Assembly: GCF_009914755.1 (NCBI RefSeq)
Contig: NC_060942.1
Length of the DNA stretch: 64,000 bases
Reading direction: 5' to 3' (one strand)
From: the human T2T-CHM13v2.0 reference genome, Homo sapiens
Part shown: one piece after another, positions 30,099 to 34,137 of the stretch
How positions within the stretch are numbered: the stretch's first letter is position 1
How the letters are laid out: each line of letters starts with the position of its first letter
The notes under the pieces: model-generated
Database searches by the model: none
What the model saw: only the letters and a program-made list of their open reading frames with translations
Told to the model about the DNA's origin: nothing
Made by a program: the position numbers and the translations under genes

Positions 30099-30488
<390 letters not shown>

Positions 30489-30835: not shown

Positions 30836-32075
30836 GTCTTCTACAAGACTTATTTTCAAAGCTGGAGCATACTTAAATAATGGGAGAGAAAAATAAGCCA
30901 CCCTGGAAAGATTTGCTATGGAAAAGAGAGCATTATTTTTCTACATTATTTTTAAATCATCCTCCTTCCACTTGGAGAACTGCTGATCATGAGAGCAGCA
31001 CAGTGACCTTGTCAGACTCCTGCCTAATTCTTGAACTTCTCTATGAAGCAAGTAAATGAAATCTGTTCCAAAAACTGCTGTTTCTTTTTCTTCTGATACT
31101 TGAAAATGTGAATTCACCTTTCTGAGTAGATTTTGATTTGGGGTAAGTTACAAAATGGGCCTTAGATAAAAGTAAGAAAAAGAAAAATGAGGTTCTGGAC
31201 AAAGCAGTACTAAAATTATTCTATAAATTAATGTAAAGGTACCGTCTTGTTTGGGTATGAAAAATATTTTGGTGTTAATTTGTTTTTTAATTGCGTGAGG
31301 CTTGGGAACTGGTATTCGGTGCCCTTGAAGTAGATGGGGATAGTGGAGATGAAGAAATTAGCTTTGCTGAGAGTGATTGCATATGGTAAAAAGGAGACAG
31401 GCTACAGAGCACAGAGGAAGGGGACAAAGGGACTTTGAAGTATGGATGAATGATGAGTTTGGAGACAGCGATGGTTGATGTTCTATCCTGATATCGAATT
31501 GAATTCTCTTTTGTGACTTCTTCCTTCCTCCCCACCACCTTCTCAGTCTCAGTCTTTAGTAAGGCTCTTTTAACCATTACAAACTAGAGCAAGCCCTGTC
31601 TTAACTCTGCCAAGAATAAAGACAGAAGGGACATGATCATAGTTTGAAGCAGAGTAGGACAAGAGAGAGTAGGAGGAGTTTGTGTGATAGACTGAGAAAT
31701 TACCGAGGAAAAACCTGGAGCAGGAGTTGAAGATTGACTGGGGATGATCAGATTATTTCTGTGATTATCCACTACTCCCAAACACCCAAATCCAAAGAAA
31801 AATCACAGAAAAGAATGTTTCTGAAAATAAATGTAGAATGGGTTTTGACATTATTTTATTTGGAAATTAAAGCTAAAACAGAACCCAAATCTCCTGACTT
31901 CCATTACAGTAGTTTGCCTGAGGTTGCAAAAGGGTCTAATAAGGAAGATCTGTACTACGCTTTTTGACAACACATTGAAGACACAGATCATAGCACTATG
32001 GCTCAAGATTATAATACCAAATATACGCAACAGAGACAGGTGCTACTCATCCTTACACTTCTCCTGCTCTTTCTT

Positions 32076-32691
32076 TTATTTATTTATTTTTTTAATATGA
32101 ACATGTGTCACAATTTCCTGCCACGAGAGAGGCAGCCCTCTTGACACTTTCCTCTGTGGCTCCATTAGCTGCTTCCATCTCACCACTAAGGATGTGGAAG
32201 GAGCCATGGAAACTCTCATCCTGGAGCCCACAGGTCCCTTCCTAGGCCTGGCTCACTGTAAAGTATGGGGGTACCATGATTACAAAAGGGGTGTGCTTCT
32301 GAGGCCAGGTAGATTTGGTGCCTTCTAGAACTCTATGTGCTCTCACACAGGTGATGAGATACCTGCTGCTTTTCAGAGAACTTGATTGCAATGGCTGGGT
32401 GGGAGAGGTATGAACAGAGATGGGTTCGCCCTGGGGGAGAGAATGGACAGAAGTGGGTTCACCCAAGGACCAAGATGGGCTGGCCCTGGAAGAGTGCAGA
32501 CAGATAAGAGAAGGGCTCCACATGGGGTTTTAGGCCCACAAGGTCTCATGACCTGCCAGGGCCTGGGGCCAGGGACCACTAGGGCTCATGTCCAACTGTG
32601 CAGCTGCTCCTGGGGGCCCTTGGCCACTGGCAACCCCTAAGCCACCTCCCCATGATGCGTGGCCTACCCCCCATCCTTTCTTTCTTTCTTT
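32076..32691 (-). other. GC-rich non-U1 segment plus A-tail, the putative 3' partner of a U1 chimeric retrocopy
   Basis: T-rich tail at 32076-32093. Flanking duplication tgctctttctt (32065-32075) / tgctcactctt (32815-32825), followed by AA, which gives an L1 endonuclease-type TCTT/AA site. GC is about 50-60% by eye, against AT-rich flanks. Confidence 0.6.
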
Positions 32692-32814
32692 TCTCCCACC
32701 ACCACAAATTTGCAGTGGAGCTTCCTATATTTGGGAAAATGGCGGGGGTCAGCACAATCAGAGGCTAATCCTCGTCCTGGGAAAACCATGGTATCTCCCC
32801 TGCCAGGAAAATAT
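32692..32814 (-). pseudogene. RNU1: U1 snRNA pseudogene, 3'-truncated (about nt 1-143 of 164) with two internal deletions
   Basis: The minus strand reads ATATTTTCCTGGCAGGGGAGATACCATG/GTTTTCCCAGGACGAGGATTAGCC/TCTGATTGTGCTGACCCCCGCCATTTTCCCAAATATAGGAAGCTCCACTGCAAATTTGTGGTGGTGGGAGA, colinear with human U1. The Sm site AATTTGTGG is retained and stem-loop IV is absent. Confidence 0.95.
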
Positions 32815-33840
32815 TGCTCACTCTTAACTGTCATGGTACACGCAGCAGCCAGGCAGCTGACATAAAGCCACTCTGGTGTCTGCGTCCTCTTGGGGTCTTA
32901 GGATTCTCACAGGAACTCACTCTAGCCAAAGTTTTAGCACAACATTTCAGAAGCGGCTATTTTCTGGCCTGGCAGATATGATCCGTGCAGTGTTTTTTTC
33001 TAACCATTTTAAGCTCATGGAATGTTTCAGGATGGCCCACTGTGATGATGACTGATGGCTAGTCACTTTTGTAATGGAAACTGGGTCCCCTGTGCACTGG
33101 CTTAGCCCCATTAACATTTCTCAACCCTCCGTTGGATAGATTACTGACTCTTTTCATAAGCTTTCTGACCTTGTCTTAAGCTTTACAATCCACGGTGATG
33201 AATTTATAGAGTGATTGTGACGATGTATGAGTAGTGTAACAGAGATAAATGGGCATTTGATGTTGACAAAGCGGAGAAAAAAATATTGTTCTCCACACCT
33301 TTTGTTAGCAAACACATGATTCACTAGAACTCTTTTTTAGTGATTTATCTATAAATCTTCTTTTCTCACTTAATAAAATGCCTCCCATTGCTCTTCCGAG
33401 GCTGACACCATGGCTTTGTAATATATTATTAAAGCCATGTCACGCTCAAGAGGCAGTGAGCTTGGCTTCACAGCAGTGTTATTTTACCTTCTGTTTCTAA
33501 AAATGATCAAACAGTTCCAAGGACGTATTAGCTGCTTCTGTATTATTCCCAACAACTTCCTTTGTAAGCAACCAGACCTACCTAATGCTTTGGAAGTGGG
33601 TATTTTTCTTTCATAAAGTTCTTATATATTTTCTATGAAGTTTGGGGAAAACTATGAAAAATGAACCACAGGAGTTGAGAAAATAGTTGTTTTTCTTAAA
33701 ATTATATTCAGAAGAATCATTTTATACAATGTTCTGGACCTAACAGGTTGAATATTATTACTATTATCCTGCGACTCTTTTGCTGGCACACTTGAAAAAG
33801 CCATATTCTCTTTTTTAGGGTCCAAAATTAAAGGTATGTT

Positions 33841-34137
33841 ATTTTAATTTCATTTTATTTATTTATTTTTACTTATTCATTTACTTACGTATTTTGAGAC
33901 AGGGTCTCCTGTTTCTCAGGCTGGAGTGCAGTGGCTCGATTACGGCTCACTGCAGCCTCAACCTCCCAGACTCAATTGATTCTCCCACATTAGCTTCCTG
34001 AGTAGCTGAGACTATGGGCGTGTGCCCCTATCCCCAGCTAATTTTGTATTTCTTGTGGAAAGAGAGTTTCACCATCTTGCCCAGGCTGGTCTCAAACTCC
34101 TGGGTTCAAGCCATCAGCCCACCTCAGCCTCCCAAAG
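33841..34137 (-). mobile_element. AluJ, missing about 35 nt at the 5' end
   Basis: gagacagggtctc...gctcactgcagcctcaacctccc...ctcctgggttcaagc...cctcccaaag. Confidence 0.92.

What the first reader, a model, noticed from the sequence alone, without database searches (positions are those of the whole stretch)
32065..32825. U1 snRNA fused to ~580 nt of foreign GC-rich RNA and retroposed as one unit
Seen: on the minus strand the order is U1 nt 1 (32814), U1 to about nt 143, an A-rich linker (AAAAGAAAGAAAGAAAGG), ~580 nt of non-repeat GC-rich sequence, then an A-tail (32093-32076). No TSD brackets U1 alone. An 11-bp duplication (tgctctttctt / tgctcactctt, 9/11 identical) brackets the whole 740 bp, starts exactly at U1 +1, and is followed by AA, giving a TCTT/AA L1-endonuclease site. 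Established: the L1 machinery makes snRNA-first chimeric retrocopies, mostly with U6 as the 5' partner; U1-led ones are uncommon. Inference: either a template switch or ligation between a pre-mRNA/mRNA fragment and U1, or 3' transduction from a transcribed, A-tailed U1 pseudogene elsewhere. In the first case it could be a fossil record of an RNA that U1 snRNP was bound to.
Basis: partly seen in the sequence, partly recalled or inferred. Interest (0 to 1): 0.85.

Follow-up and report, generated by a model that had tools for sequence, protein, structure and literature searches.

The report
Old U1 pseudogene joined to RRP7A retrocopy
A decayed, shortened copy of U1 spliceosomal RNA sits head-to-tail with a reverse-transcribed piece of an oddly processed RRP7A transcript; it is an ordinary, dead relic of LINE-1 activity, and whether the two went in together or one after the other cannot be settled here.

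Summary
On the minus strand there is a U1 copy (nt 1-143, window 32814-32692), an (AAAG)4 linker, 577 nt of single-copy GC-rich sequence, an A tail, and a 9/11 direct repeat around the whole.

The "foreign" RNA is now identified as RRP7A (chr22). It starts about 22 nt into intron 1. It lacks exactly 1,264 nt between a GTGAGC donor and the canonical exon 2 acceptor, so it was spliced. It then reads through exon 2 into intron 2 and ends in an A tail.

U1 and RRP7A parts are about equally old (U1 13.8% diverged), so the event is ancient.

AAAAGAAAGA (10/10) brackets the RRP7A part alone and overlaps the outer 3' repeat. That is what a later insertion into the 3' end of an existing 3'-truncated U1 pseudogene would leave. 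I rate nested insertion about 0.5 and a one-step U1-led chimera about 0.38. Orthologous loci would decide, and no other mammalian genome was available.

The only near-identical copy (chr14, 99.3%) is a recent retrocopy of a 1.36 kb minus-strand transcript of this locus, a daughter rather than a donor. Transduction is not supported.

Verdict: a new member of a known kind, of modest interest.

The parts
32815..32825 (-). Outer direct repeat, 5' copy (AAGAGTGAGCA). It is preceded by TT, giving a TT/AAGA target (TCTT/AA on the other strand).
32692..32814 (-). U1 snRNA retropseudogene, U1 nt 1-143. Internal deletions of 12, 7 and 1 nt; 17/123 mismatches; truncated in the 5' arm of stem-loop 4.
32676..32691 (-). 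(AAAG)4 linker. Together with base 32692, its first 9 bases form the inner repeat copy AAAAGAAAGA (32692-32683).
32395..32675 (-). RRP7A-derived segment from the 5' part of intron 1, from about +22 after the exon 1 donor to an internal CCAG|GTGAGC donor. It behaves as an extended or alternative first exon.
32257..32394 (-). RRP7A exon 2 copy, frame broken. It is joined at 32395/32394 exactly where 1,264 nt of GT..AG intron are missing.
32094..32256 (-). RRP7A intron 2 copy (read-through of the exon 2 donor GTGAGC), about 160 nt up to the tail.
32076..32093 (-). A tail, decayed to A7(TAAA)n. Its end overlaps the inner repeat 3' copy AAAAGAAAGA (32077-32068).
32065..32075 (-). Outer direct repeat, 3' copy (AAGAAAGAGCA).
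31818..33208 (-). Host transcription unit inferred from the chr14 retrocopy: TATAAA at 33208-33203, 5' end at 33177-33173, AATAAA at 31860-31855, 3' end at 31821-31818.

Best explanation
Two successive LINE-1-type retropositions, both old.

1. A 3'-truncated U1 RNA (nt 1-143) was reverse transcribed at a TT/AAGA nick. This made an almost tailless U1 pseudogene flanked by AAGA..GAGCA.
2. Later, an RRP7A transcript was inserted in the same orientation into the purine run formed by the end of U1 and its 3' repeat (..A AAAGAAAGA GCA). This duplicated AAAAGAAAGA on both sides of the new insert.
3. The 5' copy of that duplication then grew by slippage to (AAAG)4.

The RRP7A RNA was not the normal mRNA. 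It began in or was truncated to the first part of intron 1. It was spliced from an internal GTGAGC donor to exon 2, kept intron 2, and ended about 160 nt into it at an A-rich spot.

The composite is inert. U1 lacks part of stem-loop 1 and most of stem-loop 4, and the RRP7A frame is broken.

Shown: the identity of both parts, the intron removal, both repeats, and the similar age. Inferred: the order and the number of events.
For: - Identity of the 3' part. The window copy matches chr22 in two blocks, 196/273 and 243/326. The translated chr22 exon is 47/47 identical to residues 26-72 of PDB 7mq8_NI, 'Ribosomal RNA-processing protein 7 homolog A'.
- Splicing. The missing 1,264 nt begin with GTGAGC and end with TTTCCTTTCCAG, exactly at the start of exon 2.
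- Inner repeat. AAAAGAAAGA is 10/10, directly after U1 nt 143 and directly after the A tail. Background is 3 of 138 A-tract regions.
- Its 3' copy overlaps the outer 3' repeat. Both inner copies read AA at the two positions where the outer 5' copy reads GT. This is expected if the linker is a duplicate of the U1 pseudogene's own 3' repeat.
- The A-rich linker itself. In the field's criteria, A residues between the parts argue for independent events (PMC4476161, section 6 read).
- Precedent for the U1 part. Of 33 characterised U1 copies, 10 were 3'-truncated and 18 were poly(A), and 0 were sense template-switch chimeras (PMC4476161, sections 5-8 read).
- Precedent for the target. The recent chr14 retrocopy of this same locus went into an A16 run in the same orientation. 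Sense insertion into purine runs does therefore happen.
Against: - The inferred nick for the second event (TTTT/CT on the primed strand) is not the LINE-1 consensus TTTT/AA.
- A perfect 10/10 repeat is better preserved than about 14% divergence per copy predicts. About 2-3 mismatches would be expected, as seen in the outer repeat, so slippage or chance may have shaped it.
- The linker has two more AAAG units than the 3' copy, which needs a later expansion.
- A processed-transcript insertion landing exactly in one of the few hundred U1 pseudogene tails is rare a priori. By my rough estimate from recalled copy numbers, it is rarer than a U1-led chimera.
- The ages of the two parts cannot be told apart.
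Confidence: 0.5

Rival explanations
1. One-step U1-led chimeric retrocopy. LINE-1 reverse transcriptase primed on the A tail of the RRP7A transcript at the TT/AAGA nick and copied it to its 5' end. It then jumped to a 3'-truncated, oligoadenylated U1 decay intermediate and copied it to nt 1. Alternatively the two RNAs were ligated beforehand. One repeat flanks the whole, and the linker is the decayed oligo(A) of the U1 fragment.
For: - A single 9/11 repeat ends exactly at U1 nt 1 and directly follows the A tail, with a consensus-like TT/AAGA site.
- The two parts have compatible ages. U1 has K2P 0.155 on one lineage. The RRP7A parts have 0.233-0.314 on two lineages.
- 3'-truncated, poly(A)-extended U1 pseudogenes exist, 2 cases (PMC4476161, section 7).
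- Both RNAs are nuclear species.
Against: - Described chimeras join the parts directly. Here 16 nt of (AAAG)4 lie between them.
- The 10/10 inner repeat must be coincidence (3 of 138).
Confidence: 0.38
2. 3' transduction or read-through. A transcribed U1 pseudogene lay upstream of RRP7A-like sequence at a donor locus, and the whole read-through RNA was retroposed here.
For: The chr14 copy shows that read-through RNAs containing a U1 pseudogene can be retrocopied.
Against: - At the donor, RRP7A exon 1 lies directly upstream of the copied intron 1 segment.
- None of 43 Rfam hits in L006 plus L008 is U1.
- No third locus with this sequence exists in the assembly (4 candidates, 4 scored).
- The one near-identical locus carries this locus's own flanks, so it is a daughter.
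Confidence: 0.03
3. DNA-level origin. A segmental copy of the RRP7A 5' region landed beside a U1 pseudogene, followed by a 1.26 kb deletion between two CCAG words.
For: CCAG occurs at both edges of the missing segment, so a microhomology deletion would give the same junction.
Against: - The missing segment starts with a consensus GTGAGC donor and ends exactly at the canonical exon 2 acceptor.
- The segment ends in an A tail where the donor has only a short A-rich stretch.
- The copied segment has no RRP7A exon 1 or promoter.
Confidence: 0.03

Closest known systems
snRNA-led chimeric retrocopies made by LINE-1: U6/L1, U6/mRNA, and the rarer U1, U3 and U5 ones (Buzdin 2003 and Garcia-Perez 2007 recalled, not seen; PMC4476161 sections 5-8 read; PMC6789731 passages; bioRxiv 10.1101/2025.02.02.635956 passages)
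   Same: - snRNA at the 5' end, in sense orientation, with an intact 5' end.
- The non-U6 snRNA is 3'-truncated.
- The 3' partner is a cellular RNA with an A tail.
- One repeat and an L1-like nick site lie around both parts.
   Different: - A 16-nt A-rich linker and an inner direct repeat separate the parts.
- The partner is a partly spliced RRP7A transcript polyadenylated within an intron, not L1 or a mature mRNA.
- At 13.8% divergence it is older than the sets surveyed (those used <10%).
3'-truncated and poly(A)-extended U1 retropseudogenes (Denison and Weiner classes II-IV, recalled; groups in PMC4476161)
   Same: - U1 from nt 1.
- Truncated in a purine-rich stretch (GGGGGA, nt 138-143).
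- A-rich sequence follows.
- A short direct repeat with an L1-type site.
   Different: The 3' repeat copy is 600 bp away unless the RRP7A segment is a later insert.
Semi-processed retrocopies (retrocopies of incompletely spliced or intronically polyadenylated transcripts)
   Same: One intron is removed precisely, another is retained, and there is an A tail.
   Different: It holds no 3' exons of the parent at all. It uses a donor inside intron 1 that I could not check against transcript annotation.
Nested insertions of retroelements into A tails of older retroelements
   Same: Same orientation, an A-rich inner repeat, and the older element's 3' repeat displaced downstream.
   Different: The incoming element is a unique cellular transcript rather than Alu or L1.

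Membership tests
U1 snRNA-derived sequence (Rfam RF00003) | Significant match to the U1 covariance model or sequence | tested here: met
   34.2 bits, E 8.2e-7, which is below the gathering score of 69.5. 106 of 123 aligned bases are identical to a true U1 of this genome.
Functional U1 or variant U1 gene | Full 164 nt with stem-loops 1-4 and the Sm site | tested here: not met
   12 nt of stem-loop 1 and 7 nt of stem-loop 2 are deleted, and nt 144-164 are absent. The promoter and 3' box were not looked for.
Retrocopy of RRP7A | Homology to parent exons with an intron removed at its exact splice sites | tested here: met
   The 1,264 nt from GTGAGC to CAG are missing, and exon 2 is identified through PDB 7mq8_NI at 47/47. 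Only one junction is present, and its donor is not the annotated exon 1 donor.
Retrocopy of RRP7A | 3' A tail not present in the parent | tested here: met
   The window has an A7(TAAA)3A tail where RRP7A intron 2 reads TTTAAAAGTATAATCC.
Single-event snRNA-led chimeric retrocopy | One target-site duplication around both parts, with an L1 endonuclease-like site | tested here: met
   9/11 repeat with a TT/AAGA site. Chance is 1.4-6% depending on the control.
Single-event snRNA-led chimeric retrocopy | Parts joined directly, with no A tract or repeat of their own between them | tested here: not met
   (AAAG)4 lies between the parts, and a 10/10 AAAAGAAAGA repeat surrounds the RRP7A part alone.
Single-event snRNA-led chimeric retrocopy | Both parts appear together in phylogeny (empty site against full site, no intermediate) | not testable with these tools
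Interspersed repeat family (LTR/LINE/SINE) | Many dispersed copies | tested here: not met
   The 583-nt query gave 4 candidates. Each flank gave 2 places only, chr18 and chr14.

The most novel reading that the evidence does not exclude
The composite was made in one step and records physical proximity. The RRP7A segment starts only about 22 nt downstream of the exon 1 5' splice site, the place where U1 snRNP sits. The RNA is also of the kind U1 normally polices: an unused canonical donor, a downstream donor used instead, and premature polyadenylation in the next intron. Reverse transcriptase running up this pre-mRNA would have stalled at the bound U1 particle and switched to its RNA, or the two RNAs were ligated after cleavage there. 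That would make the locus a fossil of a U1 to pre-mRNA contact. Against it, snRNP-bound U1 should be full length and not A-tailed.
Probability: 0.04. Interest if true: 0.7.

Novelty: new member of a known kind. Interest (0 to 1): 0.3.

Why it matters
The locus is a clean, dissectable case at the border between 'chimeric' and 'sequential' retrocopies. It shows that an outer repeat alone does not prove a single event.

It also preserves an RRP7A transcript form that is tens of millions of years old by my reading, with an internal donor in intron 1 and polyadenylation in intron 2.

Through its chr14 daughter it reveals an unannotated minus-strand transcription unit in a lncRNA desert on chr18.

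None of this suggests a present function. U1-led chimeras joined to cellular RNAs are already described as a rare class.

Tried and rejected
- Protein reading of the 577 nt. Stop-to-stop ORFs gave only short frames. Two of them carry RRP7A exon 2 residues in different frames, which shows a broken frame and not a gene.
- chr14 as donor. Rejected: it carries this locus's flanks and its own A24 tail.
- Paralogous empty site. Both flanks are single copy, so none exists.
- Recurrent U1 class ending at nt 143 plus A's. A 22-nt pattern with up to 2 mismatches gave 4 hits: this locus, its chr14 daughter, one U1-like site on chr13 whose match reads on in U1 sequence (not inspected further), and one chr8 site that is not U1 on inspection. 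This is a narrow test and older copies would be missed.
- Genome-wide list of truncated U1 copies. Only the best 42 of about 92,300 candidates and 40 of 166 are scored, nearly all of them full length, so no survey was possible.
- Age difference between the two halves. Not resolvable. Alignment A was started at 32700, so it includes about 30 columns of U1 end and linker against non-homologous RRP7A sequence. Its 24.9% is therefore slightly overstated.
- Garcia-Perez 2007 was not held under the id I tried, and Buzdin 2003 was not seen.
- Literature search for an RRP7A retrocopy or U1 fusion. None of the 10 listed papers holds 'RRP7A'. This is one search only, so it is weak evidence that the fusion is not in print.
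- Supplementary tables of the chimera catalogues were not opened. They list L1-containing chimeras and young snRNA copies, so this locus is unlikely to be in them, but I did not check.

Full report
**What is there**

Read on the minus strand, the region holds, in order:
- TT, then AAGAGTGAGCA (32825-32815);
- a U1 copy from its first base (32814);
- an A-rich linker;
- about 580 nt of GC-rich sequence;
- an A tail;
- AAGAAAGAGCA (32075-32065).

Rfam finds U1 at 34.2 bits. E is 4.6e-6 in a 5 kb scan and 8.2e-7 in 901 b. This is well below the gathering score of 69.5, as expected for a decayed copy.

Against a true U1 gene of the same assembly (L009, 175 bits), the copy covers nt 1-143. It has 17 mismatches in 123 aligned bases (13.8%, K2P 0.155) and deletions of 12, 7 and 1 nt. 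It ends at window 32692, in the 5' arm of stem-loop 4. The linker at 32691-32676 is exactly (AAAG)4.

**What the 'foreign' RNA is**

A search of the window's own assembly with 32094-32676 gave four places, all that the first look found:
- itself;
- chr14 at 99%;
- two places on chr22, 62 kb apart, at 76% and 74% over part of the query.

blastn against 10 kb around the first chr22 place shows two blocks, 196/273 and 243/326 identical, separated in chr22 by about 1.26 kb.

Reading the chr22 sequence shows what these blocks are. The upstream block begins shortly after ATGGTGGCGCGC...GCAG|GTGAGG, a first coding exon and its donor. The downstream block begins at a polypyrimidine tract plus CAG.

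The translated downstream exon is 47/47 identical to residues 26-72 of 'Ribosomal RNA-processing protein 7 homolog A' in PDB 7mq8. The donor gene is therefore RRP7A. The second chr22 place differs in this exon. From memory it is the neighbouring pseudogene RRP7BP.

The window copy does the following:
- It starts about 22-26 nt into RRP7A intron 1.
- It runs about 280 nt to ...CCAG, which in chr22 is followed by GTGAGC.
- It then continues exactly at the first base of exon 2. The 1,264 nt between are missing.
- It contains exon 2 with a 2-nt deletion that breaks the frame.
- It reads through the exon 2 donor into intron 2 for about 160 nt.
- It ends in an A tail at a spot where the gene has only TTTAAAAGTATAA.

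A missing segment bounded by a consensus donor and the canonical acceptor means the template was spliced RNA. A microhomology deletion between the two CCAG words would give the same junction, but it would have to hit both splice sites by chance.

The template was therefore an unusual RRP7A transcript. Either its first exon was extended or alternative, or it was 5'-truncated. It used an internal donor, retained intron 2, and was polyadenylated or primed inside that intron.

**Age**

Divergence from the parent:
- 24.9% for the intron 1 part (K2P 0.314, 31 of 72 mismatches in CpG context, slightly overstated because the alignment began in the linker);
- 19.9% for exon 2 (K2P 0.233);
- 20.4% for intron 2 (K2P 0.243).

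The parent's introns also drift while U1 does not. These values are therefore about what U1's one-lineage 0.155 predicts for the same age. The two halves cannot be told apart in age.

With recalled mammalian rates, 0.12-0.16 substitutions per site on the human lineage points to roughly the early primate to eutherian radiation, not to recent primates.

**One event or two**

The outer repeat is real. It is 9/11, abuts both ends, and has a TT/AAGA site. Chance is 1.4% to 6% depending on the control.

AAAAGAAAGA lies at 32692-32683, directly after U1, and at 32077-32068, directly after the A tail. It is 10/10. A shared word that long between the linker and an A-tract region occurs in 3 of 138 such regions of this window, its own tail included.

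The 3' copy of the inner repeat overlaps the 3' copy of the outer one. Both inner copies read AA where the outer 5' copy reads GT.

A nested history predicts this layout. A nearly tailless, 3'-truncated U1 pseudogene came first, flanked by AAGA..GAGCA. The RRP7A transcript was then inserted into the purine run at its 3' junction, duplicating it.

Points against the nested history:
- The nick site is non-consensus (TTTT/CT).
- The 10-mer is preserved too perfectly.
- The 5' copy has two extra AAAG units.
- Such a hit is rare a priori.

Points for a single event:
- There is one good outer repeat.
- The ages are compatible.
- Non-U6 small RNAs in chimeras are typically 3'-truncated and can be joined to cellular RNAs (PMC6789731, passage).

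Points against a single event:
- There is a linker, whereas described chimeras join the parts directly.
- None of 33 characterised U1 copies was a sense template-switch chimera (18 poly(A), 10 3'-truncated, 1 inverted U1/L1; PMC4476161, sections 5-8 read).

I put nested insertion at 0.5 and a single-event chimera at 0.38. A recent preprint makes this same distinction with multi-species alignments (10.1101/2025.02.02.635956, passages). That test is the decisive one, and I could not run it.

**Transduction**

Transduction is not supported. The donor has exon 1 directly upstream of the copied segment. None of 43 Rfam hits in 20 kb of the two chr22 loci is U1. No third locus exists.

**The chr14 copy**

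Window 31818-33177 (1,360 bp) is 99.3% identical to chr14:22,598,541-22,599,901. This block holds the whole composite plus 352 bp and 247 bp of flank.

On chr14 the block ends in a run of more than 20 A (about 24 T on the plus strand), absent from chr18, and begins after an A16 run. It is therefore a retrocopy of a minus-strand RNA from this locus.

The block's limits fit a transcription unit:
- Its 5' end lies 31-35 nt downstream of a TATAAA (33208-33203).
- Its 3' end lies 34-37 nt after an AATAAA (31860-31855).

This suggests a full-length copy of a TATA-started, polyadenylated, unspliced 1.36 kb transcript. The gene table supplied with the finding does not list such a transcript.

There are nine differences, all inside 32093-32808 and none in 599 bp of flank. 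Four of them are at ancestral CpGs. One dinucleotide reads CA here, TG on chr14 and CG in RRP7A.

**Verdict**

The 'fused and retroposed as one unit' reading is possible but not the better half of the odds. In either case it is a dead relic of a known kind.

Noticed in passing
window 31818-33177 (-) and G000:C14:22598541-22599901: A 1,360-bp block, the composite plus both flanks, is 99.3% identical on chr14. There it carries its own tail of more than 20 A and sits in an A16 run. It is a recent retrocopy of a minus-strand transcript of this locus, so the near-identical hit is a daughter and not a donor.
   Followed up: yes
window 33203-33208, 33173-33177, 31855-31860, 31818-31821 (-): The chr14 retrocopy starts 31-35 nt after a TATAAA and ends 34-37 nt after an AATAAA. 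This implies an unspliced 1.36 kb Pol II transcript on the strand opposite LINC01924 that is absent from the supplied gene table.
   Followed up: partly
window 32093-32808 against chr14: All 9 differences between the two copies lie inside the U1-RRP7A composite, and none in 599 bp of flank (0.544^9 is about 0.004 if uniform). Four are at ancestral CpGs, including 32488/32487, where chr18 has CA, chr14 has TG and RRP7A has CG. The rest is unexplained.
   Followed up: partly
L006 (G000:C22:42994000-43003999) 6395 and about 4835-4801: The fossil implies an old RRP7A transcript form that used a GTGAGC donor about 300 nt into intron 1 and ended about 160 nt into intron 2. In today's gene an Alu starts about 45 nt beyond the last aligned base, just after the short A-rich stretch where the copy's tail begins.
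   Followed up: partly
L006 against L008 (chr22, 62 kb apart): Both chr22 copies of the RRP7A 5' region match the fossil about equally (75%/72% against 72%/72%). This fits a chr22 duplication younger than the retrocopy. Only L006 has the exon 2 that is identical to the solved RRP7A protein.
   Followed up: partly
window 30205-30487 (-) and 33894-34038 (-): Sub-threshold SRP RNA matches (44, 39 and 23 bits), with mir-1268 and mir-3135 look-alikes. These are ordinary Alu elements flanking the region.
   Followed up: no
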